A stretch of DNA of 64,000 bases from Torpedo marmorata (taxonomy: Eukaryota): assembly GCA_977017645.1 (NCBI GenBank), contig OZ360225.1, forward strand, positions 190,402,001-190,466,000, in the 5' to 3' direction. A program made the translations under genes and the position numbers. Under the pieces are notes generated by a model. It was not told the DNA's origin, did not search any database, and worked only from the letters and a program-made list of their open reading frames with translations. Below are positions 10,717 through 31,870 of this stretch, one piece after another (the stretch's first letter is position 1; each line of letters opens with the position of its first letter).

Positions 10717-12415
10717 GGGTACACCAAGTCCTGGGGAAGTTAACTTTTTCAGTACCTGGCCCCAGTGTATACTCCAAAAGAATTCATCCTTCCTGCTGAC
10801 CGTCCGCAGTCCAAATGGTCAGTCATGGTCCATAACACTTCCCTCCCTCAAAGGAAATTTTGGTCTGCATGAACAAAATTTAGGAAAGTAAGTGAGGTGT
10901 CAGAATATAAACAAAATCTACAATGTTTATCCACAAATACAAAATATGAACTATTTTCATTAATAAAGTTTAACATCTAGAAAGACAATCAGCAATTACA
11001 TTATCTCTCCCTTTTATATGAGTGATTACCAAATTATATTCTTGCAAAATTAGACTCCAATTCAACAACCGTCGATTCTTATTTTTCATTTTACAAAGAA
11101 AAACCAATGGATTATGGTCAGTATACACTATGAGTGGTTTTTGAGCTGTACAGATATACACATCAAAATGTTGTAGAGCCAATACAAGAGCCAACAACTC
11201 TTTCTCTATAGTTGAATAATTCCTTTGCTGATCATTGAACTTCTTTGAGAAGTAGGATACCGGATGTTCAATGTCCTCTTCGTTCTTCTTCTGTAACAGC
11301 ACCGCACCCACAGCTTCATCGCTCGCATCCACGGCTAAAGAAAACGACTGTTCTAAATTAGGTGACTTAAGCACAGGTTGGTGGCATAACATGGCTTTCA
11401 ATTTGACAAATGCTTCCTGACAACCTGTAGACCATACAAATTTCTCTTTCTTTCTAAGCAAATTTGTGAGAGGGAGCGCAAGATCAGCAAAGTTTTTACA
11501 GAACTTGCGGTAGTAGCCAATCATTCCCAGGAACCTCCTCAGAGTTTTCTTACCAGTTGGAACAGGGAACTCGGAAATAGCGACAACCTTTGCCTCTACT
11601 GGCGCCAACTTCCCCTGTCCTACAACATAACTCCAAGAATTAACAGTCCCATGACCCTCTCTGAAACTGGTTTTATCTGTCTCCTCCTTACCCCTGTCAA
11701 TAACCAGTACCTCTGGTAAATTTTCAGTCCCTTTGTGAGGCACCTGTTCAAAATATGGCTTAATCATATTCACATGACAGACCTGTGTGTCTCGTCTGCG
11801 ATTAGGTGTTTCTATGACATAGGTGACCTCATTAATTTTTGACTTAACTCTATAGGGTCCTGAAAATCTAGCCCTAAGAGGATTTGAATGGATGGGAAAC
11901 AGAACTAATACGTTCTCACCAGGTTTAAAAGTTCTCATCTTCGCCTTTCGATCATACCAAACCTTCATTTTCTGTTGAGTGGCCTTTAAATTCTCCTTTG
12001 CCATCTCACAAGCCCTATGTAACCGATCCTTAAATTTGGAAACATAATCTAACAGATTTAAATGCACATCACGATTAATCCACTGTTCTTTTAATAATCT
12101 TAAAGGACCTCTCACCTCATGTCCGAAAACTAACTCAAATGGACTAAAACCAAGCGAATCTTGGACAGACTCCCTCGCTGCAAATAACAACAAATGAACC
12201 CCCTCATCCACTTTCTCATCAACACCCCATCTTTTTCATAATACCCTACTGGCACCTTTTTAATCTCTTCTTCAGAGAGAACCTTATCCCTCACCTCAGC
12301 AAGATCCGGATCGTCTTTTTGCCTTGCTATTAACTCCTGTCGGGATAGTGACAAATCTGTGCCTTTAGGTGTCTTATCAGTGGATGGGCGTAACATAGGA
12401 GATTGCTCAACCTTT
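9976..12415 (-). mobile_element. 3' part of a Gmr1-like Gypsy element with internal deletions
   Basis: 3' LTR 9976-10837, PPT 10838-10850, integrase C-terminal part upstream of RT end and RNase H. Confidence 0.9.
10970..12415 (-). pseudogene. Gmr1-like pol remnant (INT C-term, RT C-term, RNase H)
   Basis: LLFAARESVQDSLGFSPFELVFG and FSGPY (INT), RRFLGMIGYYRKF, LAVDASD, YSTIEKELLAL, KGRDNVIADCLSR; INT core and RT core missing. Confidence 0.88.
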
Positions 12416-14433
12416 TAATACAATTTACCCTTCCTATTAAAGTATAGGTAAATCCTTCCAACTCTCTAAATCTTTTTTAATTTTCATAAACAATGGTAAA
12501 TAATTTAATTTATACAAATTAACTAATTTTGTATCAATCTTTATTCCCAGATATTTAATTCCTTCTTTTGACCACTTAAATTGTGTAATTTCTTTACATT
12601 TACTATAATCCCCTTGCGTTAATGCCATAATTTCACGTTTATCAGAATTAATCTTATAACCAGATATTTCCCCATATTCTCTCAATAAAGCAGTCAATTG
12701 TATTAAAGAAGTAACAGGTTTTGACATATATATCAATACATCGTCTGCAAATAAACTAATTTTATGCTCTTCCCTTCCAACTTTAATACCTACAATCTTA
12801 ACATCTTGTCTAATTAATTCTGCCCAAGGTTCTATCGCTAAAGTAAACAATGCTGGTGACAAAGGACATCCTTGTCTAGTTGACCTAGTCAGAGGGAATT
12901 TTGAAGAAATTTGTCCATTTGTAACCACTTTAGCAGATGGTTCTTTATATATAGTCTTAATCCAGTTAATAAATGTAATTCCAAAACCAAATTTCTCCAA
13001 TACCTTAAATAAAAAATTCCACTCTAATCTATCAAAAGCCTTTTCAGCATCTAACATTAATACTAATGCTAAATCTTCCTTCTTTTTATGCACATTAATT
13101 AAACTAATTAATCTAGCTATATTATCCTTTGAATATCTATTTTTAATAAACCAGCTTGATCTACATGGATTAAATCTGGTAGATAATTAGCCACACTATT
13201 TGCAAAAATTTTTGCCATTATCTTATAATCCACATTTAGCAATGAAATAGGTCTATATGATTCTATTTTCAACACATCTCTATCTTTTTTAGGTTTAACT
13301 GTAATTATTGCATTTGAAAATGTATCCGGTAACGAATGAGTTTCCGTATTTGTTTCAACACATCCATATATGGAGGTATCAATAAATCTTTAAACTCCTT
13401 ATAAAATTCTGATGGAAAACCATCTTCCCCTGGAGATTTACCACTCGTTAAAGAAGTAAGAACCTCATTAACTTCCCTCATTGAGAAAGGCGAGTCCAAA
13501 GATTCTTTACTTTGAGTATTTAATCTAGGTAACTTAATTTTAGATAAAAATCTATTAATTTTAGAATCATCTTGATCAATCTGAGATTTATATAAATTCA
13601 AATAATAATCTTTAAAAGAATCATTTATTTCTCTAGGTTTATGCGTTATTTTCTTAGAATTCTTTTTTATAGCATTTATAGTTCTAGAAGTTTGATCTTT
13701 CTTTAACTGCCACGCCAACACTTTATGTGCTCTTTCTCCCAATTCATAATATCTTTGTTTAGTTCTTTCAATTAACTTTTCCATTTTATATGTTTGTAAC
13801 AAATTATAATGCAATTTTTTTCCAACTAAATTATTCCTTTTTTCTTCTTATCTCTTTTTTTGCAAATCCTTCTCCAAATATTCAATCTCTCTCTACAAAT
13901 TATCCACCTCTCGAAGATAATCCTTCTTAACTTTTGCTGAATAACTTATTATTTGACCTCTTAAATAAGCCTTTAAAGCTTCCCAAATGATAAATTTATT
14001 ATCAGTCGAATTAGAATTTATTTGTAAAAATTCCTGAATTTCCCTTCTCATATAATCACAAAAATCCTTTCTTTTTAATAAAGAAGAATTAAATCTCCAG
14101 CTTTATATAGTTTTTTTATTTTTCCGGAATTATACAAGACGTTAATAAAGGTGAATGATCAGAAATTATTCTCGCTTTATAAGATGCTTGTGTTATTCTT
14201 TCTTGAACTTGTGAAGACAATAAAAACAAATCTATCCTAGAATTTGAATCATGTCTAAAATAATAAAAAGGATAATCTTTTTCTCTAGGATTCAATTTTC
14301 TCCAAATATCTATTAAATTTAAGTCTTTCATCAAAGTAAGAACTCTTTTAGCAGTTTTAGTTTTAGCAACTGATCTTGATGTTTTATCCATTATCGGATC
14401 TAAACAGCAATTAAAATCCCCACCAATTAAAAT
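12416..14433 (-). mobile_element. L1-clade LINE ORF2 segment (EN C-half to RT), 3' end lost
   Basis: ILIGGDFN, SRIDLF, ISDHSPL, KSPGEDGF, LDAEKAFD, RQGCPLSP, FADDVL. Confidence 0.93.
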
Positions 14434-16539
14434 GATGGCGTAGGACGGAGACGTTGAAATACACCTCTCCCCACGGATTTAATTAAAAATCGTATATATG
14501 AAACTTTATTTAGCTTAAAAATAGATTAAAAGTCTCTACTAAAAGTTTAACAATGACCTCAAGAAAAATGAAAGAGCAAAAAGTAAAGAAAGCAATGTTC
14601 CAACAAACTTTACTTCAAGAAGAAGAACGGCCTACCTGTGTGATGGAGCCTCAGCTTCAGGTAATCCTCCCTCCCAAAACAGCACGAACGAGAGCGGCGA
14701 GATCGACTGCAGCACCCAGGGAGCTGGGGAAGATGGTGCCGGTGCTCGAAGAAAAACTACAAGACTGCAGATTTTGACGGAACAACCGCGCATGCGCGCC
14801 GTTTCGCGCATGCGCGATAGACAATGGGAGCTGTCAGATAAATCTGACAGCAAAAGAGACGTCCCACAAACATTACAATATGTTGTGGGACCTGAAACCT
14901 CTTCAGATTCAGATGACAAGATGAAAGAGAAGAAAGGAATGATAGAACAAGAAATGGGAGAAATGGAGGGAGAGGCTGAGGACTCAACTGATGAAGAACT
15001 TCCAACAATGCAAACTCAACAAATACTTAATGCTATTTCAAAAATGGAATCTCATTTGGAACATAGACTTAATGAAGAAATGGTGGATTATAAGGATAGA
15101 GTTGATAAAATAGAAGACTCATTTACAGGTTGGGAACAACAAAGAAATGAACTTTTACAAAAATTGGAAGTATTGGAAAATCAAAGCCGGAGGAATAATA
15201 TTAAAATTGTGGGACTTCCTGAAAATTTTGAAACTTACGACACAACTGAATTTTTCCAGAAATGGATTTTGGAAAACTGAATTTTTCCAGAAATGGATTT
15301 TGGAAGTTCTGGGTTTAGGTAATGAAGTGGAGTTAGAGAGAGCGCATAGAATTGGAAGACAGAATCAGTATGCGGATCAGTTTTGATTAAATGTCTTCGT
15401 TATCCGGACAGAGAGAAAATATTAAAAGCAGCTATCCAAAATGCTAAAACATATAAGTCTCCACTGATGGTTAAGGGAAACAGAGTTTTCTTTTATCCTG
15501 ATTTAAGTTCAGCTATAGTTAAAAGACGAAAAGAATTTAACCCAGCAAAAGCGATTTTTTGGAAAAAGGGATATAAGTTTTCTTTTAGATATCCTGCGGT
15601 TTTGAGGGTTCAGTCTGAAGAAAATCAATCTCGTTTTTTTACGGATTGCCAACAAGCGTTTCAATATGCAAATTCTCTTCCTTATTTGAAGAAAGATCAA
15701 GATTTGATGGATCATCACCAAGTTCAAGAGATTTCACCGTCGCAAGTTTCTTTGCCAAGTACTTCAGGAAAAGAGGAGGAGGCCGAGGTCGAGATTGATG
15801 AAGATCAAGTTCTTAAGGACCTTGAAGAAGCTAAATGAAGTTATGATAATAAATGCTGTGTAAAATCTGTTGGGGGGAGGTGGACTTTTTGTTTCTCCTT
15901 CCTAGCCACATACCACCTTAGTGGCGAGGGCCACTTCTCGAGTAATGGAGGGGGGTAATACTGGGGTAACTTCACAGTATTTTATTTATTGGGGTTTTGT
16001 TTCTTTTCTATTTTCCTATTTTCTTTTTTTCTTTTTAAGGAGATGTCAAATAGATTACGATTTTGGAGGAAGGTGCTGGTAGATTTGATGGAGAGAGATT
16101 TAACAAAATTTAGTAATGATGGATAGTAAAACAATAAATGTAGTAATTATTAATATAAAAGGGCTAAATAACCCGATTAAAAGGAAGAGAACTTTAGCGC
16201 ATATTAAAAAGTTAAATGTAGATATAGCTTTCTTACAAGAGACACATTTGACAGATTTGGAACATCAGAAGTTAAAGAGAGAATGGGTTGGTCAAGTGGT
16301 TGCTTCATCATTTAATTCTAAAGCAAGAGGAGTTGCCATATTAGTTAATAAAAAGTTACCTTTTAAAATACAATCTGTGGTTATAGATGTGGTAGGTAGA
16401 TATGTTTTAATACATTGTCAGATATACTCGGAATTTTGGACACTTATGAATATATATGTACTAAATGCAGATGATGAACAATTTATTCAAGATTCTTTTT
16501 TGCACTTGTCAGAAGCTAATGATAATATTTTAATTGGTG
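14434..16539 (+). mobile_element. Inverted 5' part of the same L1: 5'UTR, ORF1, spacer, ORF2 EN N-half
   Basis: Begins gatggcgtagg; ORF2 starts 16116 (NIKGLNNPIKR, FLQETHL, RGVAIL); ends at attttaattggtg, where the minus-strand segment resumes. Confidence 0.92.
14553..15838 (+). pseudogene. L1 ORF1 (Transposase_22-like RNA-binding protein), frameshifted
   Basis: LENQSRRNNIKIVGLPE, ELERAHRIG, FFYPDLS, RYPAVLRV; a 31-bp tandem duplication at 15244-15305 shifts the frame. Confidence 0.88.
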
Positions 16540-18690
16540 TCAATGCATCTTGATGTATGTGCACAAGTGTACGTTCCTGCCTGTATGGTCATCTTCATAT
16601 CTGGTCTGCCTTTTCGCTGCATCAAGGCTCATATATGTTTGGAACATAGAACATTATAGAATTTGTTCGCCTTAACTTTCTTGGATATTTTTGGCCCAAG
16701 GGCTTTAGTGGAGCTTGTTTCAAGGAAGCAATGGCCTCCCCAATGTTCAGTTCCCCTCAACATTTTGTCACAATTGACATTGTTATCTTGTGACCGGGAT
16801 TTAATCAGTCAAGTGCCAGGGTATGGAATGAGAGAGTATTATGATGTTGCCAACAGCATGACCACACAAACACTTTAGTTCTCTAATAATCGGATTTGAA
16901 GATTGTTCACAGAAATCCACAAGATTTTTCTTTGCACTTGGTGACAAGCAAGAACCTCAGCAAATTTCATTTGTCATCAGCTCAGTAATTTTCCAGTAGA
17001 AAGTAAACAAAATACTTTGGACAGGTAAAGTGATTTGCCTGGAGCTTGGATATTCTGGACCAATGTTTGACAATCAACTTCAGACATTGTGCATCCAACT
17101 TGAGCAAGTACAGTAATAACATCTTATTGTCATATCTCATTATGATTGCTCAGCTGAAACCTAATTTCCAGTGTCTTACAGTGTATCATCATTTTCAGAG
17201 CGCCCAGTCGCCTTGCCGTAACCTTTCATATGTCCCTTCCCATTGCCAATAGGCTCAATGCACACTGATTGGCGATGCTGCTGGAGCTGCTGTAACGGCA
17301 GCACTGCCGGTGCTGCAGACCCAGGAGAGCGGAGAGCAGAGACACAGCCCTGCTCTGAAGATTTCAACTGCCCTGTCCTAATGCCAGTGACTCTGTACAG
17401 GCTTTCATGGCCTGTTAGAGAAGCCAACAGCGTTTTTAAACTAAAATCCTGCAACTGCGGGGTCTGTGCCCAAGATGGCTTGGCAGCGGCCATGAGGGTT
17501 AGCAGACTCCAGGGAGCAGCGGACTGGAGCAGGGTACCAAAAACAGGAACAACATTCCCCATTGAGAAGGAGAAGCGTGTGAGACGACCCTACAGGACGG
17601 TGACCACGGTGGCGGACTAGTAAGGGGGCTCAGTGGCTGAGGGACCCACACAGGCTTTGGGCGACTTGCGATCGGCGGACCCACAAGGGCTCTCGGCTGC
17701 TGGAGACTGGCTCATGGGTACAAAGTATCAGAGCCGGGTGTAAGAGCCATAGGCTTGGTTACCAACCTTCATCGCGGTGTTCCAATGGTCCCAACGGGTG
17801 TCGGAGGAGTCACGGAGAATAGTAGGCCGTGCTAGGCCTATTGAGTACTCTGCGCATGCACGGGAGTGCAGACGGGCGCATGCGCGTTAATCAGAGAAGA
17901 AGCATATAAGAATATGGCGACCTGGAGGAGGGTGAGTGAGATCGCCATAGATTTCATTGACCGTTTAAAGGAGCGTTAGAAAGAATCGTTGTAAAAGAAC
18001 ATTTTAAAGGAAGTTTAAAGACGTTTTAAAGAATCGTTATTAAACATCGTTATCAAGAATTGTTTATATTTCGTTAAAGAAGATATTTAATTCATTGAAG
18101 ATTGCTACAAGTCATCGTATGTTAATAAAGTTTTTGAACCTATTGGACTTTTTAGTAAATTAAATGAAACGCTCATGAACAAGTGTCTCACCTAGCCTCC
18201 AAGTGACTATTTGTTGTATTGAAGTCACTATATTTTAGTCAATTAAAGATTATTGTTTGGAACAGAAAATTGAAGGAAAGAAGATAGAATAACCTCTCTA
18301 TGCTTTGGACTGATATTTAAAATAAAATGGCGGCCATCTTGGAAATGCCTCGAGTTAGGGGCAGTTTGTAATCCACATCCATCTGCCATGAGTAACAGCC
18401 AGAGAGGGATATAGAGCTTTAAATCTTATAGTAAAGTGTCCTATAAATACGTTGGAGAAACCATTTCTTGAAAATCAGCGATATTATTGATGGATGCTGT
18501 GGTGGAAACTCGTTTGTGAATAGCAGCACATTAAAGTCATCTGAAGTGGTAGGCATAAGTCTGTGGACTCCTTCTGTGTATCTTTGGCAAGTTTGAACAC
18601 AGATTGGATTTACTGCCGCTAGTCCATTGGGGACTGTTGATTTGGCTAGTGTTGTGTATGCTCGAAGTACAGTGGAACAAGACGAGTAAA

Positions 18691-18835
18691 ATGGCCACAG
18701 CAGCCGCTGATGTTGCTGTTGAGGAACAAAGTATTGAAGACATGAAGGTTGTGGATCTCAAAGAAGAATTGAGGCGACGGAAACTAGATACAAGTGGAAA
18801 TAAAAAGGTTCTCATTCCAAGACTGAAGCTGGCAA
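18691..18835 (+). pseudogene. SAP-domain coding segment (SAFB/SLTM-like) at the start of BEL gag
   Basis: MATAAADVAVEEQSIEDMKVVDLKEELRRRKLDTSGNKKVLIPRLKLA fits the SAP pattern LxVxxLKxELxxRxLxxSGxKxxLxxRL. Confidence 0.75.
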
Positions 18836-18922
18836 ACGTGAAGAACAGGCGGCTTCGGTTGATGGGAATGAAGAAATTGCAAACTCATTGCAAAAGACAA
18901 CGACGAACATGAACACAGCAAT

Positions 18923-21400
18923 GTGGAAATGGCTGAAAATGTGTCACCAAATGATGAAGAAAACGAAGAGGATGAAGCTACAAAGGATGTACAATTCGAA
19001 TTGCAGAAAGAGGTAAGTAAGAAGACAACATCAGACCTGCAGGATGAAATACAAGCATGTGACAGTGTCTTAAATGTTGAAAGCAGGAGAAGCAAACGAA
19101 GTTCTGGTTCGAGCTCCAGAGTTTCTCGTACTTCAAGTTCTGCATCGTCACGTACAAAGGTTGAAGTTGACTTGGCCACTCTTCTTGCACAACAAAAAAT
19201 GCTAAAGGATAAACATATTTTAGAAGGACAGGAGGAGCAGCTAAGGCAAAAGGAGGAGCAGCTAAAGCAGCAGCTAAGGCAAGAGGAGGAGCAGCTAAGG
19301 CAGAACCAGGAGCAGCTAAGGCAGAGAAAGTAGCAGCAGGATCTGGAAGCAAACATTACTATTGCCAGGGCAAAAAAAAAGGTACTAGAAGGCTCAATGG
19401 TATCTGGTGCTCAGAGTAAATTATCGAAAGTGTGCGATGATAAGAAGTTATATTTTATAAAGGAGCCACAGGAAAAGAAACCAACCAAAAAGGTAGATAT
19501 TTTAGTACCAAGGGTACAAGACATGCAAATACAAGGACAAATCCTTCAAGAGCATGGTGTTATCGAGTCACATGTACCAGTGGTAACATCCAAAGACAAA
19601 GCTGCGGCTTGGGTTCGGTGAAACGATGCAGCTCCCTTGGCATTCGAGTCAAGCATCAGAAATACAGGAGAAACTACACCAGTGAGGTTTCCAGATACAT
19701 TACCTGCAACAAGAGGCGGTGAACAGAGCAATGTATTGTCATCCACAGGAAGACAAAATGAAATTGCTGCATCATTGATTCAGTTACAGTCTATCTCTTC
19801 TTTGCCCAAGAAAGAGATTCAAACTTTTGATGGTGATCCACTTCAGTACCAAGCGTTCATGAGATCATTTAGATGCAGTATTGAAAATAAATGCCAAGAC
19901 CCTGTTGAAAGTCTTTATTATTTGGAAATATTCACAAAGGGACAGCCAAAAGAACTTTAAAGAGTTGTCAACATATGTCCTCAGAAAGAGGATTAGACAG
20001 AGCTAAGTCTTTACTGGAACAACATTTTGGCAACAAGCATCGAATTGCTTTAGCTTATATGGATAAAGCTCTTAAATGGACATCAATAAAACCGAATGAT
20101 GTAAAGGCTCTACAAGCATACACTCTCTTTTTAAGAGCATGTTGTAATGCCATGGAAGATATCGATAATATTCGTGAGCTTGACGTGCCTGGTAATATGC
20201 GAATCATCTTAGATAAATTACCTTACAGGTTGTGGGATAGTTGGAGAAATTTGGCTTGTGATTTACAAGAAAATTACGGTCAAAGAGCTACCTTAAAGGA
20301 TATGGTAAATTTTCTTGAACAACAGGTGTACATTGAAACAGATCCAATATATGGAAATACCAGAGACAACTCAATGGGGAACAAAGATGTAAGGAGGTCT
20401 TACTCACAGCCTAGTCTGAAATTGAAAAGGAGTACTTTTGCTACTAATGTTTCAGTTATAAATAAAGAAAAAGATAAAGTAAATAAGGAAAAGGAAAGTT
20501 TGCCTAATGAGAAGAGTTGTTTGTTCTGTAAAGGTGGACATGCTTTGGAAATGTGTTTACGGTTGGAAAAGAAGGAACATAATGAGAAGATCGCTTCCTT
20601 AAAGGAAAATGGAGCATGTTTCAACTGTCTGTGTAAAGGGCACATCAGTAAAAACTGCGAGAAGCAAATTAACTGTAACATATGCAATTTGAAGCATCCT
20701 AGAATGCTGCATATCCATCAAAGAAAGAAGGAATTAGAAAAGGAGCAAACAGAAACAAAGGAAACAACAGAAAACAATGTTATAACCTCAGTTCAGACAA
20801 GTGGTCTTACCGGGGCCGGTGTGGATAACTGCAAACTTTCAATAGTGCCTGTACAAGTCAAGACCAAGAAAGGGGATGCAACAGTACATATATATGCATT
20901 TCTTGACCCAGGCAGCACTGCATCTTTTTGCACGGTGGGACTAATGAACAAACTTAATATTCAGGGAAGAAGGTCAAGAATTATGTTGAAAACCATGGGA
21001 CAAGAAAAGGTAGTTGAAACCAGCATTGTTTCAGGCTTAGAGTTTGCTGGATTGGATTACAAAAAAATTTGTATTCTTCCAAGTTTATATACTCAGAAGA
21101 CTATGCCTGTGCACGAAGGAAACATTCCGCATGAAAATGATTTCTATCATTTGTCTTATCTGTGGAAGGTTTATTTACTTGAAGTTAACTATGAGATAGA
21201 AATGCTGATTGGTTCAGATGTGCCAAAGGTTTTGGAACCACTAGAAGTAATACGGAGTAGAGGGAATGGACCTTATGCTGTTAGAACCAAGCTTGGTTGG
21301 ACAATCAATGGACCATTGGAAAGAAATAATGATATTGCACAGGAACAGTTAGCGATAAATGTTAACAGAATTTCGGTTGTGAAAGTTGATGAGTTAAGGG
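18923..21400 (+). pseudogene. BEL/Pao gag-protease (stops and frameshifts)
   Basis: SLPKKEIQTFDGDPLQY, CLFCKGGH, CFNCLCKGH, CNICNLKHPRMLH knuckles; YAFLDPGSTASF protease; PYAVRTKLGWTINGPL. Confidence 0.9.
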
Positions 21401-21831
21401 AAGAGCAAAAGACTGTGAATAAGAAAGTCATTTTTGAAGAAAAGAAAACAGATCAATGTGAAAATAAATCAAAGGTATTTAAAACAACATTGAAGCAATT
21501 ATTTTCATCAGAAATTGATAAAAATGAAGTATTAGAAGATATTGCAAATAATACTAATGATTATTCCTGTGTAATTGAATCAGCGGCAGGATTAAAACAA
21601 GTGACTGAGAACAAATTTGAAAGTAGATTTTGTAGTTCAGAGGTTACAACAGACAAAGTCAATGAAGAAATGTTGCAACGTGATGTAAAACTGGATAACA
21701 CAGAAAATTGTGCTGATGGAATGAAGAAGAATGTGAATGATAATTTAATGCAATTGAATTCAGAGAACAAAATGTTGAAAGGGGAATTGGAAATATTGGA
21801 TAATCATGAAAACAGTAAACAGAAAGATTTA

Positions 21832-22180
21832 ATTGTAAATAAAATTCGCAAAGTCAGAAAGCGGAAGAAAAGAATGACTGCTGAAGAAATAAATACAGTT
21901 ATTGAGGAAAGAGTTTCAGCATTATCGAAATATAAAAGGTTGGAGGAAGAGATTCATATTTTGAAAGAGATTGTTATTGGTTAATAACACAAAACAGTTG
22001 ATTATAGAAAACAATCAAGAATGTAAATTGAAGGTTCAGCTATTAACAATGCAGAAAGAAAGTGATATTGCATTGCAGCAATGTAACAAGCAAGATGAAG
22101 AAATTCAAAAATTTCAAGTTTACCACAGCAGGGTTGACAATGTATCACATGATATTTTCACTTCAGATCAAGTTATTAAT
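21832..22180 (+). pseudogene. Captured MIPOL1-like coiled-coil fragment within the BEL element
   Basis: KRMTAEEINTVIEERVSALSKYKRLEEEIHILKE...NNTKQLIIENNQECKLKVQLLTMQ...ALQQCNKQDEEIQKFQVYHS resembles vertebrate MIPOL1 as recalled; one frameshift, no introns. Confidence 0.7.
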
Positions 22181-23936
22181 TTCTCGGAAGGAACTGAGAC
22201 TGAATTGAAAGTTGCAAAATTGGATTTGGAATTGCAGGAAAAGGCAATAGAAACCAGAGTGGTTAAAGAGACTCGTTTATTAAAATCAAGAGGATCAGAT
22301 AAATATTCAAATTCTAGTTCTAAGAGATTAAATTCTTCATATGAGAAGTGGTATGCTGAAGAAAGGAATAAAGTGAAACGACATGCTGAAGAAGTACCTC
22401 GTGTTAAATTCAAAAGAAAAACTAGCTATTTTGTCTGAGGAAGATTTAAGGTTTACTGGTCGACGTTTTAACTCAAAAATTCTGGAGATAAAAGAACTTT
22501 GATAAATACAAACTGACTTTATTTTGTTGTGTTGTATACTACATAGGTTACAGACTTTTATTGATCCAGAGTTATGGTAAACTCTGGTCTTATGAAGAAA
22601 GAAGATTTGTATATGGTTTGAATGTTATATGGTTATTGTTATTTGTAATTGATTGTGTAATTATTATTTAAGAAGTTGCGTCTCGTTATAATAATTAGAG
22701 GCCGGTGTAAGAGCCATAGGCTTGGTTACTTACATTCATCGTGGCTTTCCAATGGTCCCAGTGGGTTTCGGAGGACTCACGGAGATTAGTAGGCCGTGCT
22801 AGGCCTATTGAGTACTCTGCACATGCGCGGGAGTGCCGACGGGCGCATGCGCTGTGGGGAAGTGGCTGGAGCATGCGCGGTGGAGTATGTTCGGTGGAGT
22901 ATGCGCGGTGGAGCATGCGCATTAATCAGAGAAGAAGGATCTAAGAATATGACGACCTAGAGGAGGGTGAGTGAGATCGCCATAGCTTTCATTGACCGTT
23001 TAAAGGAGCGTTAGAAAGAATCGTTGTAAAGGAACGTTTTAAAGGAAGTTTAAAGACGTTGTAAAGAATCGTTATTAAACATTGTTATCAAGAATTGTTT
23101 ATATTTCGTTAAAGAAGATCTTTAAGTCATTGAAGATTGCTGCAAGTTATCGTGTGTTAATAAAGTTTTTGAACCTATTGGACTTGTTAGTAAATTAATT
23201 GAAACGCGTCATGAACAAGTGTCTCACCTAGCCTCCAAGTGACTATTTGTTGGATTGAAGTCACTATACCGGGATTCAAGAGGGTGCTGAGTGCAAAAAG
23301 GGCTCCCAAAGGGCCTCGGGTGCTGAGGCTTCCTAAAGGTATCGGAGGTTTGGATCTGGAGCTCGGGTTGCCGATGGATCGAACAGCAGTCGGTGTGGCT
23401 GCAGAGGCTGTAGGAGCGCTGGAGATGAATCCATGGGCATTCAGTGTCTCTGAAGGGACACTCTTCTGCTTCTCTTTGTCCTTTTGTTAGGGGAGCCGGG
23501 CAATGCTCATGGTGACTTGTTGTTTTCCTATGGCAGACAAAAGTTAAAGTATATCATGTTCGTTACATTTTTTATCTATTATTACGTGACATTAAAAGGA
23601 ATCTTTAAACTTGAACTTTGATCAAAGTACACTCCCAATCACCTCATTTTGATCGTACAAGTCCACCAGTTCAAAATCAATTAGCCTGCGCTCTACACAA
23701 ATCCATTTTCATTCATTCAGTACTTTTTCCAAACTAAAGTTATGTGCCTTCTTGTCTTGATCCACAGTAACATCAATGCCTCGCTCTCATTTTCTTCACA
23801 TGATAGAACTAAATAATAATCCCCACCAATTTCAGAGTTTCCTCTGTATATCTTACAAATTAAAACTCTACAGGGAGCACAACATTTCCATAGAAAACCC
23901 CAGCACAAAGTTTCCATGGACAACCCTAGTGATGTG

Positions 23937-24504: not shown

Positions 24505-24691
24505 AGAAAATGCCGGCAGGTGTCCGAACAAAAGAGTGAGGGGGGGAGGGGGGGGGGTGGCAAAGGCGGAAGATGATAGGTGGAGAAAAGAGGGAGGGGA
24601 CAGCAGCAAAGAGGGGGAGGAGGGATGGCTGGGTGGGTGGAAAAAAACAGGAAGGACAGGTGAGGGGGGAGGGGAAGGAAACGACAAGCAG

Positions 24692-26334
24692 TCTCCAACA
24701 CCATCTCCAACCTCATCACCTTCTGTCACCTCCCCCACACGGCCACCAACCTCATTCTCTCCCACGCCTGCACTGCCCGTTTCTACCTTCTACCCAAGAT
24801 ACACAAACCCAACCAACCGGGCAGACCCATTGTTTCTGCCTGCTCCTGCCCCACCGAACCAGTTTCATCTTACCTTGACTCTATCTTTTCTCCCCTGGTC
24901 CAATCCCGCCCCACCCACATCTGTGACACCTCACATGCCCTCCATCTCCTTAATGACTACAGATTCCCTGAACCGGACCACATCATCTTCACAATGGATG
25001 TCCAATCCCTTTACACCTCTATCCCCCACACAGAAGGTCTGAAAGCACTTCGCTTCATCCTGGACCAAAGACTCGACCAGTCACCCTCTACAACAACCCT
25101 CCTCCGCCTGGCAGAACTTGTTCTCACTCTCAATAACTTCTCCTTTAATTCATCCCACTTCCTACAAATCAAAGGAGTAGCCATAGGTACCCGCATGGGT
25201 CCCAGCTACGCCTGCCTGTTTGTGGGCTTTGTGGAGCAATCCATGCTGCAAGCCTACACAGGCAAGACCCCTCATCTCTTCCTCCGGTATATCGACGACT
25301 ACATTGGGGCTGCCTCATGCACCCACGATGAGCTTGTCAACTTCATCCACTTCACATCCAACTTCCACCCTGACCTCAAACTCACCTGGTCCATCTCCGA
25401 TAGCACTCTCCCCTTCCTGGATCTCTCTGTCTCCATCTCGGGAGACAAGCTTTCCACCGACATATACTACAAACCCTCCAACTCCCACAACTATACTTCC
25501 TCACCCCCTGTCCCCTGCAAGGATTCCATCCCCTTCTCTCAATTTCTCCGTCTCTGCCGCATCTGTTCCCAAGGTGAGGTCTTCCAGTCCAATTCTTCTG
25601 AAATGTCTGCTTTCTTCCACAAACTTGGCTTCCCCTCCACCACCATCAACTCAGCCGTCACCCGCATCTCCTCCATTTCCTGCTCATCTGCCCTGGCCCC
25701 CTCTGCCCCCAGACGCCACAAACATAGAATCCCCCTCATCCTCACCTACCACCCCACCAGCATCCACATCCAACATATTATCCGGGGGAATTTCCGGCAC
25801 TTACTACAGGATCCCACCACCAGACACATTTTTCCTTCTCCTCCCCTCTCGGCCTTCCGCAGGCACCGCTCCCTCCGCGAATCCCTCATGCACTCATCCC
25901 TCCCCACCCATTGCACCCCAAGCCCCTTCCCCTTTGCCCGCAGGAGGTGCAACACTTGCGCCCACACCTCCCCCCTCACCACGGTCCGGGGCCCCAAACA
26001 GGCCTTTCAAGTGAAGCAACACTTCACTTGTACATCCAGAGAACTTATTTACTGCATCCGGTGCTCCCTTTGTGGCATTCTCTACATCGGAGAGACCAGT
26101 CGTAGATTGGGAGATCGCTTCGCTGAGCACCTCCTCTCCGTCCGCAACAACAGCGACCTCCCAGTAGCCAACCATTTCAATTCCGAGTCACCCTCCCACA
26201 CTCACATGTCTGTCCATGGCCTTATGTACTATCCCACCCAGACCACCCACAAATTGGAGGAACACCATCTTATTTTCCGTCTGGGCACTCTCCAGCCCGA
26301 TGGCATTATCATTGACTTTTCTGCTTTCCACTAA
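24692..26334 (+). pseudogene. Penelope RT plus GIY-YIG endonuclease (5'-truncated)
   Basis: MDVQSLYTSIP, GVAIGTRMGP, LRYIDDY, LPFLDL, CTSRELIYCIRCSLCGILYIGETSRRLGDRFAEH. Confidence 0.92.
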
Positions 26335-26518
26335 ACCTGCTTGCCTTTTCCTTCCCCTCCCCCCTTCCCTGTCCTTCCAGTTTTTCCACCCACCCAGCCA
26401 TCCCTTCTCCTCCTCTTTGCTGCTGACCCCTCCCTCCTTTCTCCACCTATCATCTCCTGCCTTTGCCACCCCCCTTCCCCCCCTCACTCTTTTATTCAGA
26501 TGCCTGCCGGCATTTTCT

Positions 26519-26559
26519 CATACTTAGATGAAGGGCTCAAGGCCGAAACGTCGGTTATG
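26519..26559 (+). ncRNA. Minimal hammerhead ribozyme motif (mutated)
   Basis: catacttagatgaagggctcaaggccgaaacgtcggttatg. Confidence 0.55.
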
Positions 26560-26939
26560 TATTTCTACCTTTGCTACATAAAGGACACTGTTTGACCTGC
26601 TGAGCATTTGTGTTTTAACTTCAACCACGGTGTCTAAATATTTTCATGATTTACTTCTTTCACCAACAGGCTTCAAAAAGTTTCTTCCCTGCAGTTACCA
26701 GGCTCCTGAATAAACCCCAATAGGGCTCTCATGCAGCCCTTGCTTGCTGCTAATTGATCTCCCTTTTCATTGTAATCCCATGTCTGTAAATTGAGTTCTT
26801 TACATGAACATACGAAATGTTAAAGATAATCTTTTAGCCTGCTCGCAGCAGAACCCTTCTCATTGCATGAGGTATTTTATGACAACTAATCTTAAACTTA
26901 AAACCTGAGTCAAGCAGAGAAAGATTGCAAGTTGGACCA

Positions 26940-27062
26940 TCCATAAAATATCAAAGATGTACGGGGTTAGAAAGTTAATTGGTCACATGGGTGTGTTGGG
27001 CAGCGTGGGCTCGTGGGCCGGATGGGCCTGTTACCCTGTTGTACCACTAAATTAAAATTAAC
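26940..27062 (+). mobile_element. 3' half of an HE1/V-SINE-like SINE
   Basis: gttaattggtcacatgggtgtg...gggcctgttaccctg tail, as in the SINEs at 51480 and 58478. Confidence 0.6.
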
Positions 27063-27494
27063 ATTTCACTATGTTCCTGCGCAGTGTAATGAATAAGGAT
27101 GTGACCATTATATCTATCAATTTATTGTTCCAATAAGATTTGATTATTAATAAACATTTCTCCTGGATTTACACCACAAGGGAGTATCTGTAAAGGCTGC
27201 TTAAAAGTTCTCTTCCTATTACTTTAACATTTCATTCAATGAAAATATTTTAAAATATTTGAATTTGGAAGGCCATGATGATGTTGCATCGCTCATTTTA
27301 AATGCATTATTTTTCATACACTAAAGTTATTTTGGTTCTTATCAAAATTTGGTTTGCTAATTTTGAGGCTGAATTCCTTTGTGCTTTTAATAGGTACACA
27401 TCAGTCTCCTGTGTGGTCTTTTATTTTAGTACCTTTGGTAATATGCTCACAGCTGATGTTCTATTTTTTGTCCCTGTGAATTTCACATCAGATT

Positions 27495-28225
27495 CTTGTA
27501 CCATGCAGAAGTTGACAATTTCATTAACTTAACTGTCAACTTCAAACCAGCTCTTTACCTGCACATTTTCTGTCATCTCTCTTCCCTTCCTCAACCTCTC
27601 TGTCTCCATCTCAGGGGACAAACTATCCACAGACACCTTTCACTAACCCCACCGACTCTCACATCTACCTAGTGTTTCCTGCAAGGATGCCGTCCCTTTC
27701 TTACAATTCTTTTACCTCCCCTGCATTTCCTCTCAGGGTGAGGCCTTCCGGTGTAGGTCACCCAAAATGTTTCTTTCTTTGCTAAGTGTGGATTTCCCCT
27801 TAATTTCATTGATAAAGCTCATATGCATAACTCTTCTGTTTCTCGAACTTCCCTCATTTCTCCCCAGGTAGGACAAGACCAGTGTCCCTCTGGTCCTCAC
27901 TTTTTACCCCTCCAGCCTCTTCTTCCAACATGTGGTCCTCCATCACTTCAGCTAATTTCAGCGCGATCCCACTATCAGCCACATCCTGCCACCCCTATCT
28001 GCTTTTTGAGGGGATGTATCTCCAAGACTCTCTAATCTGTGCAAAACTCTAACCCACCCTTCCAACCCCTCAGGCATTGTAATCAGAGAAAGTGCAAAAC
28101 ATATCCCTACATAAGGCCATAACCAAACCTTACAGGTGAGGCAGAACTTTACATGCTCATCGTCCAACTGAAACTACTGCGTTTGGTGTACTTGGTGTGG
28201 CTTTCTCTACATTGGTAAGACCTCC
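27495..28225 (+). mobile_element. Decayed Penelope ORF fragment
   Basis: ctctctgtctccatctcaggggacaaactatccac and caggtgaggcagaactttacatgc parallel 25420-26100. Confidence 0.75.
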
Positions 28226-28265
28226 CTTCTGGACAGACTGAACATCTTATACACACAATTCGAAA

Positions 28266-31200
28266 AGAACACAGAACATAGAACACTACAGCACAGTACA
28301 GGCCCTTCGGCCCTTGATGTTGTGCCGACCCATATATTCCTTTAAAAAAAATACTAAACCCTCCCTACCCCGTAACCCTCTATGTTTCTTTCATCCATGT
28401 GTCTGTCTAAGAGTCTCTTAAATGCCCCTAATGTTTCAGCCTCCACCACCATCCCTGGCAAGGCATTCCAGGCACCCACAACTCTCTGTGTAAAAAACTT
28501 ACCCCTGATGTCTCCCCTAAACTTCCCTCGCTTAACTTTGTACATACATATGTCCTCTGGTGTTTGCTGGTCCTGCCCTGGGAAACAGGTGCTGGCTGTC
28601 CACCCTATCTATGACTCTCATAATCTTGTAGACCTCTATCAAGTCTCCTCTCATTCTTCTACGCTCCAAAGAGAAAAGTCCCAGCTCTGTTAACCTTGCC
28701 TCATAAGACTTGTTTTCCAATTCAGGCAACATCCTGGTAAATCTCCTCTGCACCCTCTCCATAGCTTCCACATCCTTCCTATAATGAGGTGACCAGAACT
28801 GAACACAATACTCTAAGTGTGGTCTTACCAGAGATTTGTAGAGTTGCAACATGACCTCTCTACTCTTGAGCTCAATCCCCCTATTAATGAAGCCCAGCAT
28901 CCCATAGGCCTTCTTAACTATCCTATCAACCTGTGCGGCGACCTTGAGGAATGTATGGATTTGGACCCCAAGGTCCCTCTGTTCATCCACACTCTTAAAT
29001 AACCGACCATTAACCCTGTACTCAGTCTTCTGGTTTGTCCTTCCAAAATTCATCACCTCACACTTATCCGGATTGAACTCCATCTGCCACATTTCTGCCC
29101 AACTCTGCATCCTGTCTATATTCTCTTGAAAACATCGACAACCTACAGCTCCATCTACAATTCCTCCAACCTTCGTGTCACTGCAAACTTACTGACCCAT
29201 CGTTCCACCTCATCATCCAGGTCATTTATAAACATCACAAAGAGCAGGCGTCCCAGAACAGATCCTTGTGGTTCTCCACTAGTCACCGACCTCCAGGCAG
29301 AATACTTTCCTTCCACTACTACTCTCTTCTTTCTACCTGCAAGCCAATTTTTTATCCACACAGCCAAGGTTCCACTGATCCCATGCCTCATGACTTTCTG
29401 GATGAGTCTCTCTTGGGGGACCTTGTCAAATGCCTTTCTAAAATCCATGTAGACCACATCTACCGCCCTACCCTCATCAATTTCTTTTGTTACCTCCTCA
29501 AAAACTCAATTAGGCTCGTGAGGCATGACCATCCCTTCACAAACCCATGCTGACTCTCCTTGAGTAGACTGTACTTCTCCAAATGCTCATAGATCCTATC
29601 CTTAAGAATCCTCTCCAATAGTTTGCACACGACTGACGTAAGACTCACCGGTCTATAATTCCCAGGATTCTGCCTATTACCTTTTTTAAACAAGGGGACT
29701 ACATTTGCCATTCCCCAATCCTTCGGCTCCTCCCCTGCAGCCAAAGAGGATTCAAAGATCATAGCTACTGCCCCAGCTATCTCTTCTCTCACTTCCCACA
29801 GCAGCCTGGGGTATATTGCGTCCGGCCCCGGGGACTTATCAATCTTGATGTTTTTAAGAAGATCCAACACTTCCTCTTCCTTAATCTCCACATTGTCCAG
29901 CACACAGGCCTGTTCTATTTCGACCTCACCCTGATCAAGGTCCTTTACTCTTGTGAATACTGAAACAAAGTTTTCATTTAGGACCTCCCCAACCTCCTCC
30001 GCCTCCAGGCACATGTTGCCTCCTTTATCAGCCCCACCTTCATCCTCGTTATCCTTCTGTTCTTCATATACGCATAGAACGCCTGGGGTTCTCCTTAATC
30101 CTACATGCCAAGGTCTTCTCATGCCCCCTTTGAGCTCTCCTAAGTCCTTTCTTAAGCTCCTTCCTGGCTACCATATATTTCTCATGAGCCCTTCCTGTTT
30201 CCTGCTTCCTATATCTAACATATGCTTCCTTCTTCCTCTTGACTAATTGCCTCACCTGTTTCGTCAGCCACAGTTCCCATTTTTTCCTTGTTCCAGGGGG
30301 ACAAACCTATCCTGAACCCTGCACAAGTGGTCCCTAAACTTCCTCCACGTTACTTCTGTGCTTTCACCCTTGAACATCTGTTTCCAATTTACTCTCACTA
30401 GTTCCTGCCTCATCCTTTCATAATTAGCCCTTCCCCAGTTAAGCACTTTCCCATTTTGTCTGTTTTTATCCTTTTCCATAGCTATGCTGAAGCTAAGGGA
30501 GTTGTGGTCACTCTCACCAAAATGCTCCCCCACCGAGAGGTCCGCCTCCTGACCAGGTCGGCTGGTCCACATACTGTGTCAGGAATCCTTCTTGAATGCT
30601 CCTGACAAATTCAGCCCCGTCTATCCCTCTTGCAGTCAGGAGGTGCCAGTCAATATTAGGGAAGTTGAAATCACCCATAACTACAACCCTACATTTCCCA
30701 CACCATTCCAAAATCTGCCTGCTTATCTGCTCCTCGGTGTCCCGAGGGCTATTTGGGGGCCTATAGACTACTCCCAACACAGTGATAGCTCCCTTCCTAT
30801 TTCTGACTTCCACCCACACCGACTCAGTAGACACTCCCTCTGCAGCGTCCTCCCTTTCTATAGCCGTGATACTATCCCTGACCAGTAATGCTACTCTACC
30901 CCTTTTCTACCTCCCATCCTATTCCTTTTAAAACACTTAAACCCCGGTGGTACCTGCATCAGCCAATCCTGCCCTTCCTCCAGCCAAGTTTCAGTAACGG
31001 CCACAACATCGTAGTTCCACGTACTGATCTATGCTCTGTTCATCCCCTTTATTCCTAATACTCCTTGTGTTGAAATAGACACATTTCAACCCCCCTAACT
31101 GGCTATATTTATGTTTTGTCCCCTGCCTGTCCTTCCTCACCAACTCAGAACACATAGCATCATGCTTTTGTCCTTCTACCTTAATCTCTGCACTCACATA

Positions 31201-31870
31201 CTGATTCCCACCCCCCTGCAAAACTAGTTTAAACCTTCCCCAACAGCTCTAGCAAACCTGCCCGCCAGGATATTGGTCCCTCTCCAGTTCAGGTGCAGCC
31301 CGTCCTTTTTGTACAGGTCAGACCTTCCCCAGAAGAGATCCCAACGATCAAGAAATCTGAACCCCTGCCCCCTGCACCAACTCTTCAGCCACGCATTCAT
31401 CTGCCACCACTTCCTGTTCCTACCCTCTCTGGCGCGTGGCACAGGCAGCAATCCTGAGATTACCACCCTTGAGGTCCTGCTTTTTACCTTCTTTCCTAAC
31501 TCCCTATATTTCCTCTTCAGGACCTCATCCCTACTCCTATCTATGTCATTGGTCCCCATGTGGACCACGACATCTGGCTGCTCACCCTCCTCCTCCAAAA
31601 TGTTATGAACTCGATCAGAGACATCCCTGACCCTGGCACCAGGATGGCAACATACCATCCGGGAGCTCGATCTCATTCACCAAATTTCCTATCTGCTCTC
31701 CTAACCAATGAGTCCCCAATTACTATAGCACTCCTCTTCTCCCCCCTTCCCTTCTGAGCCGATGGGCCAGCCTCTGTGCCAGAGATGTGACCACCACGAC
31801 TTGTCCCTGGTAGATCGTCCCCCCCAACAGTATCCAAAACAGTATACTTGTTGTTGAGAAGAATAGGTTG
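28266..31870 (-). mobile_element. Near full-length decayed CR1 LINE with SGNH-esterase ORF1 and EN-RT ORF2
   Basis: IVIGDSLVR, VHMGTNDI, KDGLHLN (esterase); VVYRPPN, MGDFNFP, GESDHN (EN); NYRPVSLTS, DFRKAFDKV, LVRPHLEYC; (catagaa) tail. Confidence 0.93.

What the first reader, a model, noticed from the sequence alone, without database searches (positions are those of the whole stretch)
18691..18920. SAFB/SLTM-like SAP DNA-binding domain at the N-terminus of the same BEL Gag
Seen: a good-context ATG (aaaATGG, 18691) opens MATAAADVAVEEQSIEDMKVVDLKEELRRRKLDTSGNKKVLIPRLKLA, followed after frameshifts by an acidic linker and BEL gag. Established: SAP domains bind AT-rich scaffold DNA. As recalled, the sequence resembles the N-terminal SAP of SAFB/SLTM. 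Inference: either a second host capture or a native chromatin-tethering module of this BEL lineage. With the MIPOL1-like insert it suggests an element that repeatedly collects host coding fragments.
Basis: partly seen in the sequence, partly recalled or inferred. Interest (0 to 1): 0.7.

Follow-up and report, generated by a model that had tools for sequence, protein, structure and literature searches.

The report
Retrotransposon captured host SLTM DNA-binding domain
In a ray genome, a jumping-gene family carries the intron-free start of the host gene SLTM fused to the front of its capsid gene in more than a thousand copies, likely kept because this small domain helps the element bind DNA or RNA.

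Summary
The SAP domain is real (Pfam 43.5 bits, cut-off 23.9). It is the N-terminus of Gag across a BEL/Pao LTR-retrotransposon family of this 6.2-Gb ray genome, including copies with RT and integrase. The window copy is a broken, non-autonomous member.

I found the donor, the host SLTM gene (G000:C68). The least-diverged subfamily carries 38 nt of SLTM 5' UTR, all of coding exon 1 and 16 nt of exon 2, without the 1,184-nt intron (30 of 30 copies). This points to capture from mRNA. SAP-core DNA identity to the host falls from 90-96% through 82-86% to 74% (window) and 55-69%.

The captured SAP sits where related BEL Gags have a different N-terminal domain. It shows moderate purifying selection (pN/pS 0.36-0.49, below 1 in 3 of 6 comparisons), while the adjacent linker looks neutral. 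A distant BEL clade has its own N-terminal SAP; a single origin is rejected (AU p=0.001).

Chromatin or RNA tethering is inferred, not shown. Insertion flanks are not AT-enriched. I found no report of this capture in the papers I could search.

The parts
17734..17738 (+). left target-site duplication (CCGGG)
   Evidence: same 5 bases at 23269-23273
17739..18232 (+). 5' LTR
   Evidence: direct repeats D1, D2, D4; 19 substitutions in 358 aligned LTR bases, 5.3%
18660..18690 (+). remnant of the captured SLTM 5' UTR
   Evidence: local match to host UTR, shuffle P=0.008 for the window copy; not significant in 4 other diverged copies tested
18691..18732 (+). start codon and Ala-rich leader, derived from SLTM exon 1
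   Evidence: same layout as host exon 1
18733..18831 (+). SAP domain core from SLTM exon 1
   Evidence: PF02037 43.5 bits; 22 of 33 residues and 74% of bases identical to host SLTM
18832..18849 (+). remnant of the first 16 nt of SLTM exon 2; the frame shifts here in this copy
   Evidence: D-type copies match exon 2 at >=14 of 16 bases in 30 of 30; window compared with sister copies
18850..19050 (+). acidic linker of element origin, evolving about neutrally
   Evidence: pN/pS 0.81-1.22, all intervals include 1; weak likeness to the ancestral N-terminal domain (P=0.003 for P0004; 18 comparisons made)
19050..21407 (+). BEL gag (Ser-rich and coiled-coil part, DUF1759 capsid-like domain, Cys/His region) and protease, broken by stops and frameshifts
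   Evidence: aligns with autonomous-type copies L027 and L197
21407..22480 (+). insert in place of RT, RNase H and integrase; part is MIPOL1-like
   Evidence: gap against L027 and L197; Atlas top hits MIPOL1, 0.95 and 0.94; donor locus not found
22706..23268 (+). 3' LTR
23269..23273 (+). right target-site duplication (CCGGG)

Best explanation
This BEL/Pao retrotransposon family carries the intron-free 5' end of the host SLTM gene fused in frame to the start of Gag, likely captured once from SLTM mRNA by template switching during reverse transcription, and likely kept because the SAP domain binds nucleic acid for the element. Shown: the donor locus; the 204-nt captured piece (38 nt UTR, 150 nt exon 1, 16 nt exon 2); the missing intron; the in-frame fusion in autonomous-type copies; a gradient of divergence from the host; nesting among SAP-less BEL relatives. 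Inferred (about 0.93): capture from mRNA in this ray lineage. Inferred (about 0.7): the domain was under purifying selection while the element replicated. Predicted (about 0.4): SAP stays on Gag, or is cut off by the element's protease, and tethers the particle or pre-integration complex to chromatin, as p12 does for MLV. The window copy is a broken, non-autonomous descendant and is not expected to make the fusion protein.
For: Host locus: CpG-rich first exon with splice donor, and exon 2 1,184 nt downstream. Narcine SLTM matches 11 collinear segments (residues 1-525) at 71-100% in 39.6 kb. 119 of the 120 listed hits of a D-type SAP are named SLTM, batoids first; the other is unnamed, with SAP and RRM. 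Five of 7 D-group copies aligned match the host at 87-89% over 164-190 nt; the other two match at 82% and 78%. 30 of 30 D copies continue into exon 2, not into the intron (mean 5.9 of 16), and stop matching after 16 nt. SAP-core DNA identity to the host: D 0.90-0.96, intermediates 0.82-0.86, A 0.72-0.75, E 0.65-0.69, B/C 0.55-0.69. 0 of 24 full-length homologues have SAP; the fish-type ones have another conserved N-terminal domain there. Trees nest the ray copies among SAP-less BELs, with D on short branches. Selection: SAP pN/pS D-A 0.44 [0.23-0.78], D-E 0.36 [0.20-0.61], A-B 0.49 [0.25-0.98]; linker 0.81-1.22. Neutral simulations with stops purged: P 0.0025-0.015 for A, E and C; P 0.012-0.030 for copies picked by capsid, not by SAP. 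The young subfamily E (median LTR divergence 2.2%, n=15) still passes the Pfam cut-off in 3 of 3 frames that hold the whole domain (25.6-34.5 bits). A distant BEL clade has the same SAP-first layout from a separate origin.
Against: No binding, expression or localisation data. The SAP pN/pS interval includes 1 in 3 of 6 comparisons (A-E, D-B, B-C), and subfamily B is borderline in simulation (P 0.01-0.057). The subfamilies share ancestry, so the tests are not independent. GC-to-AT drift of a GC-rich captured piece (GC 0.48 to 0.35) can inflate synonymous change. Most copy sets were chosen by SAP likeness. E scores lower on Pfam than the host exon (45.3 bits), which could mean decay. 5' flanks of 21 copies average 58% AT against 57% for the window, so no AT-rich targeting is seen (crude). 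Exon 1 and the intron end in the same 6 bases, so a DNA-level deletion could mimic splicing. Ray copies form one group only with weak support (RT 69/75; capsid 91, 75), and not in the reduced tree.
Confidence: 0.72

Rival explanations
1. Passenger: the SLTM piece was captured from mRNA but is kept only because it supplies the start codon and an open frame for Gag-Pol. The SAP domain has no role for the element and is slowly decaying.
For: The fragment does supply the ATG. Three of 6 pN/pS intervals include 1. E scores lower on Pfam. No AT bias at insertions.
Against: The simulations already purge stops and still fall short of the observed conservation. The linker and leader take indels while the 33-codon core stays ungapped in all 75 copies scored, although these were chosen by SAP likeness. 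In the capsid-picked set, 20 of 30 copies have an ungapped SAP, 1 scores just under the threshold, and 9 are interrupted upstream; none shows a clean SAP deletion within 1.5 kb. B and C score above the host on Pfam (50.5 and 58 against 45.3). A second BEL clade gained SAP at the same place.
Confidence: 0.2
2. Counter-defence: SAFB-family proteins repress transposon RNA, so an SLTM-derived SAP on Gag acts as a decoy or competitor that weakens this repression.
For: SAFB1, SAFB2 and SLTM bind L1 RNA and suppress retrotransposition, and their loss raises LTR/ERV expression in mouse cells (PMC10901741, passages). The donor is that repressor.
Against: The captured part is the SAP only, not the RRM or ER-rich parts (one search lists the architecture). 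The domain has drifted from SLTM towards a generic SAP (22 of 33 residues in the window, 13-18 of 33 in B/C), which argues against mimicry of SLTM itself.
Confidence: 0.08
3. Native module: SAP is an old feature of BEL Gag, inherited and not captured; the SLTM match reflects later gene conversion in one subfamily.
For: 11 of 174 BEL homologues hit a SAP profile, 7 of them above the Pfam cut-off. The shared A/B/C/E residues look like a generic SAP.
Against: Those SAP-bearing BELs are far away in the capsid tree, with strongly supported SAP-less branches between them and the ray copies; a joint clade is rejected, p-AU 0.001 (the group was defined after seeing the first tree). Their SAPs share only 10-17 of 33 residues with SLTM. 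Intermediates bridge D and A, and the window copy keeps UTR traces.
Confidence: 0.04

Closest known systems
LTR-mediated retroposition (Tan et al. 2016, PMC5131818; abstract and opening text seen)
   Same: A spliced host mRNA piece joined to LTR-element sequence, attributed to template switches at short similar sequences; reported from flies to fish and mammals.
   Different: There, young retrocopies are flanked by discontinuous LTR elements. Here a 204-nt 5' end is built into the start of gag of complete autonomous-type elements, passed to at least five subfamilies and conserved as protein.
SAP domains in Zisupton DNA transposons and in a Chlamys Penelope-like element (PMC8557442, one passage)
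   Same: SAP as an accessory domain of a mobile-element protein.
   Different: Other element classes and positions; that passage names no donor gene. Here the donor gene and intermediate stages are visible in the same genome.
MLV Gag p12 chromatin tether (Elis et al. 2012, PMC3531515; abstract and author summary)
   Same: A small module that tethers the pre-integration complex to chromosomes; a heterologous chromatin-binding module can partly replace it. That p12 is Gag-derived is recalled. It is the model for what this SAP may work like.
   Different: No homology; p12 function is shown by experiment, this one is not.
BEL/Pao LTR retrotransposons, fish-type (de la Chaux and Wagner 2011, PMC3118150; passages)
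   Same: LTRs with 5-bp target duplication, DUF1759 Gag, protease, RT, Peptidase_A17, integrase.
   Different: N-terminal SAP from SLTM in place of the usual N-terminal domain; 'SAP' occurs 0 times in that paper's main text. The superfamily (for example Suzu) was not assigned, for lack of named references.
SLTM / SAFB family (PMC10901741, passages)
   Same: N-terminal SAP and its Ala-rich leader.
   Different: No RRM or ER-rich region; fused to Gag.

Membership tests
SAP domain (PF02037) | HMM score above the curated cut-off | tested here: met
   43.5 against 23.9 bits
SAP domain (PF02037) | helix-extended-helix fold | tested here: inconclusive
   Alignment-based model has both helices and superposes on SAP chains at E>0.001. 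A single-sequence model of an E-type domain gave one long helix and is uninformative.
SAP domain (PF02037) | binds DNA (SAR) or RNA | not testable with these tools
   Reported for the SAF-A SAP (PMC12176297, one passage); net charge +1 to +4 in the element cores against +4 in the host
SLTM-derived sequence | closest proteins are SLTM | tested here: met
   119 of 120 listed hits named SLTM for a D-type query; an A-type query found 0 among 77 candidates
SLTM-derived sequence | DNA match to the host gene, including non-coding sequence | tested here: met
SLTM-derived sequence | closer to SLTM than to the paralogue SAFB of this genome | tested here: inconclusive
   Host SAFB was not found. Identity of 90-96% to SLTM makes SAFB unlikely as donor for D; later input from SAFB to A/B/C/E is not excluded.
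LTR-mediated mRNA capture | intron lost at the exact junction | tested here: met
   30 of 30; caveat of 6 shared bases at both splice sites
LTR-mediated mRNA capture | short similarity at the fusion points | not testable with these tools
   No pre-capture parent found in the genome with the P0004 N-terminal query
BEL/Pao retrotransposon | LTRs and 5-bp target duplication | tested here: met
BEL/Pao retrotransposon | DUF1759 Gag, RT, Peptidase_A17 and integrase in order | tested here: met
   In sister copies L021, L027, L087, L170, L197. The window copy lacks RT, RNase H and integrase.
Distant SAP-bearing BEL clade (P0228, P0255, P0195 and others) | one clade with the ray elements | tested here: not met
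   p-AU 0.00108

The most novel reading that the evidence does not exclude
A vertebrate LTR retrotransposon took the DNA-binding domain of SLTM, a host repressor of transposons, swapped it for its own N-terminal Gag domain and now uses it as a chromatin tether. The gain helped the family expand in a 6.2-Gb genome, and a distant BEL clade made the same swap independently, so SAP-first Gag is a repeated adaptive solution.
Probability: 0.3. Interest if true: 0.88.

Novelty: new variant of a known kind. Interest (0 to 1): 0.72.

Why it matters
Transposon accessory domains (SAP, PHD, chromodomain) are usually too old for their donor to be named. Here the donor gene, the spliced junction, a series of intermediates and a young subfamily are all in one genome. 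That makes it directly testable how a host domain becomes a transposon domain. It reverses the usual direction (host co-opting gag), it involves a known repressor of transposons, and it suggests that the N-terminal position of BEL Gag is an exchangeable nucleic-acid-binding slot.

Tried and rejected
SAP-only protein search with an A-type query: 0 hits among 77 candidates.
Family search of the genome with PF02037 was swamped by element copies. Two host SAPs turned up, hnRNPU-like (L043) and hnRNPUL-like (L088); these labels are recalled, and neither resembles the element.
Host SAFB was not found: the recalled motif gave 1,250 matches, of which the 20 fetched were all element copies.
No SAP-less parent was found with the P0004 N-terminus (0 of 56 candidates); this is not proof of absence.
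Host MIPOL1: one motif gave 0 hits; another gave 44, of which 40 were examined and all were element copies.
Sequencing runs for the host exon 1-2 region: no RNA holder listed. No reads were laid, so the transcript start and expression remain open.
The single-sequence fold was uninformative.
The idea that the linker is a decayed remnant of the ancestral N-terminal domain is weak: best P=0.003 among 18 comparisons, and the other low P values align elsewhere.
LTR dating does not separate D (6.0%, n=3), intermediates (7.5%, n=2), A (5.7%, n=15) and B (5.0%, n=7); only E is younger (2.2%, n=15).
JC-corrected dS for SAP is near saturation for D-E, so I rely on the uncorrected values. Capsid values may be raised by misaligned codons near frameshifts.
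Rows left out of trees: A, B, D and E were thinned to about 7 each. In one search only SAP-less proteins with an apparent N-terminus were kept (71). One search used 43 of those 94 rows.
Paper searches that found no report of SAP or SLTM on BEL Gag: (listings only, except the papers cited). Repbase and Dfam entries, subscription journals and supplements were not seen and could hold a description.

Full report
Observation. The ATG at 18691 opens a 48-residue stretch that scores 43.5 bits on Pfam SAP, cut-off 23.9, over residues 15-46. PDB sequence hits are SAP domains. The stretch lies in a 5.5-kb LTR element: LTRs 17739-18232 and 22706-23268, CCGGG target duplication, 5.3% LTR-LTR substitutions. 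The window copy has a frameshift just after the SAP and several later breaks. Against autonomous-type copies it lacks RT, RNase H and integrase, which are replaced by a 1.07-kb insert at 21407-22480.

The family. The genome has 6.2 Gb. The window SAP found 150 scored matches (the cap), at 88-96% identity apart from itself, among 30,456 first-look candidates; candidates are not copy numbers. One exact motif pattern alone has 1,250 matches. Natural copies hold SAP, linker and DUF1759 in one frame (L021, L022, L024). Copies with RT and integrase carry the SAP too (L021, L027, L087, L170, L197). I grouped copies into A (window type), B, C, D, D-A intermediates and E. B and C are not separate clades in the capsid tree. 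E is young (median LTR divergence 2.2%, n=15); the others are 5.0-7.5%.

The donor. A short recalled SLTM/SAFB motif gave 6 matches, all in a further subfamily, D. A D-type SAP search listed one match that ends at residue 49. It is a CpG-rich first exon with a splice donor at G000:C68. Narcine SLTM matches 11 collinear segments there, residues 1-525, at 71-100%, so the gene is SLTM and the host is most likely an electric-ray relative (inference from the nearest protein). Of 646 protein hits to a D-type SAP, 119 of the 120 listed are named SLTM, batoids first. The D leader agrees best with this genome's exon and next with Narcine, which points to capture within this lineage.

The junctions. D copies match the host from 38 nt before the ATG through exon 1: 87-89% in 5 of 7 copies aligned, 82% and 78% in the others. 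All 30 D copies checked continue into exon 2 (>=14 of 16 bases) and not into the intron (mean 5.9 of 16); the match ends after 16 nt (mean 4.9 of the next 14). The 1,184-nt intron is absent. Public SLTM proteins read straight across this join. The simplest reading is capture from spliced mRNA by two template switches, one 16 nt into exon 2 and one at or near the mRNA 5' end (inferred; the transcript start was not measured). A break inside exon 2 argues against splicing into an intronic element. Caveat: exon 1 and the intron end in the same 6 bases, so a DNA deletion could give the same join.

Descent of the window copy. SAP-core DNA identity to the host is 0.90-0.96 in D, 0.82-0.86 in intermediates, 0.72-0.75 in A (window 0.74; 22 of 33 residues), 0.65-0.69 in E and 0.55-0.69 in B/C. 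The window keeps a UTR trace (P=0.008); four other diverged copies do not reach significance. RT and capsid trees place all ray copies among SAP-less BELs, next to the unnamed P0004-P0006, with D on short branches. Support for the ray copies as one group is weak to moderate (69/75; 91; 75), and the reduced tree splits them. None of 24 full-length homologues has SAP; the fish-type ones begin with a different conserved domain of about 110 residues before the motif shared with the ray Gag. That domain was not found in this genome. So SAP stands where the ancestral domain stood. RT and integrase of D are about 75-87% identical to P0004; arrival by horizontal transfer is plausible but untested.

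Is it kept by selection? Uncorrected pN/pS for the 33 SAP codons: D-A 0.44 [0.23-0.78], D-E 0.36 [0.20-0.61], A-B 0.49 [0.25-0.98], A-E 0.55 [0.23-1.45], D-B 0.69 [0.44-1.10], B-C 0.68 [0.35-1.33]. The linker gives 0.81-1.22, the spacer 0.81-1.13 and the capsid 0.41-0.70. Neutral simulations from the host exon, with stops purged and GC/CpG bias, give P 0.0025-0.015 for A, E and C, 0.01-0.057 for B, and no signal for D. To reduce ascertainment I took 30 copies by capsid similarity: 20 have an ungapped SAP (4 with a stop), 1 scores just under the threshold, and 9 are interrupted upstream; simulation P 0.012-0.030. Pfam scores: host exon 45.3, window 43.5, B 50.5, C 58, E 25.6-34.5. The evidence is moderate: the domain is short, the lineages are related, and composition drift is a confounder. 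Against AT-rich targeting, 21 5' flanks average 58% AT against 57% for the window.

A second origin. Of 174 BEL homologues (150, 24), 11 hit a SAP profile at the N-terminus. Of these 11, 7 pass the Pfam cut-off, 3 fall just short and 1 has no Pfam hit. The 10 looked up are unnamed assembly proteins. They form a distant group in the capsid tree, share 10-17 of 33 residues with SLTM, and in several the SAP leads through a short linker into the same Ser-rich region. Joining them with the ray elements is rejected (p-AU 0.001; group named after the first tree). SAP-first BEL Gag has therefore most likely arisen at least twice.

Mechanism. I commit to this: mRNA capture put an SLTM start codon and SAP at the front of Gag-Pol; the domain was then retained as a nucleic-acid-binding module, most likely tethering Gag or the pre-integration complex to chromatin. 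The analogy is MLV p12, where a foreign chromatin-binding module partly rescues tethering mutants (PMC3531515, abstract). The SAF-A SAP binds SAR DNA and RNA (PMC12176297, one passage), so binding to the element's own RNA is an equally open variant. SLTM belongs to a family that represses transposon RNA (PMC10901741, passages), which makes a decoy role conceivable, but drift away from SLTM argues against it.

The second insert. The Atlas ranks MIPOL1 first for part of the insert (0.95). It is in frame with Gag-protease in young copies such as L192 and L187. No host locus was found, so serial capture is a lead only.

Comparison and verdict. Capture of spliced host RNA by LTR elements is known (PMC5131818, abstract and opening). 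SAP is known in Zisupton and in a Penelope-like element (PMC8557442, passage). A BEL/Pao survey does not mention SAP (PMC3118150, term search). Ten paper searches showed no SLTM- or SAP-Gag fusion; repeat databases and supplements were not seen. Earlier notes on this genome list first-exon captures by DNA transposons (unchecked); these are a different mechanism. Verdict: real, donor identified, a new variant of a known kind; interest 0.72.

Noticed in passing
window 21407-22480; L192, L187: A MIPOL1-like insert replaces RT, RNase H and integrase in non-autonomous A and E copies and stays in frame with Gag-protease in young copies (open frames of 1,186-1,250 aa). Donor locus not found.
   Followed up: partly
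P0228, P0255, P0195, P0189, P0274, P0202, P0241, P0245, P0246, P0265, P0212: A distant, unnamed BEL clade with its own N-terminal SAP; several have an acidic SAFB-like stretch after the domain (likeness recalled), so the donor may be an invertebrate SAFB.
   Followed up: partly
L187 (G000:C1:1493700-1503600) and neighbours: A tandem array of the young E element with a 4,964-base period, at least 5 units, 99.5% identical.
   Followed up: no
G000:C23, C154, C184, C187, C237, C566, C651, C782, C1158: B-type SAP matches with the same score and frame length on many small contigs, suggesting a segmentally amplified region; L087 is a complete-type copy from one of them.
   Followed up: no
P0004, P0005, P0006: SAP-less BEL polyproteins from unnamed assemblies; P0004 is about 75-87% identical to D copies in RT and integrase; possible horizontal transfer.
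   Followed up: partly
L043; L088: Host first exons with SAP domains, hnRNPU-like and hnRNPUL-like (names recalled).
   Followed up: no
window 10970-16553 and 24664-31676: Neighbouring decayed elements judged by eye: gypsy-type pol (10970-12235, -), L1-type pieces on both strands (12437-16553), a Penelope-like frame (24664-26334, +) and a CR1-type element (28532-31676, -).
   Followed up: no
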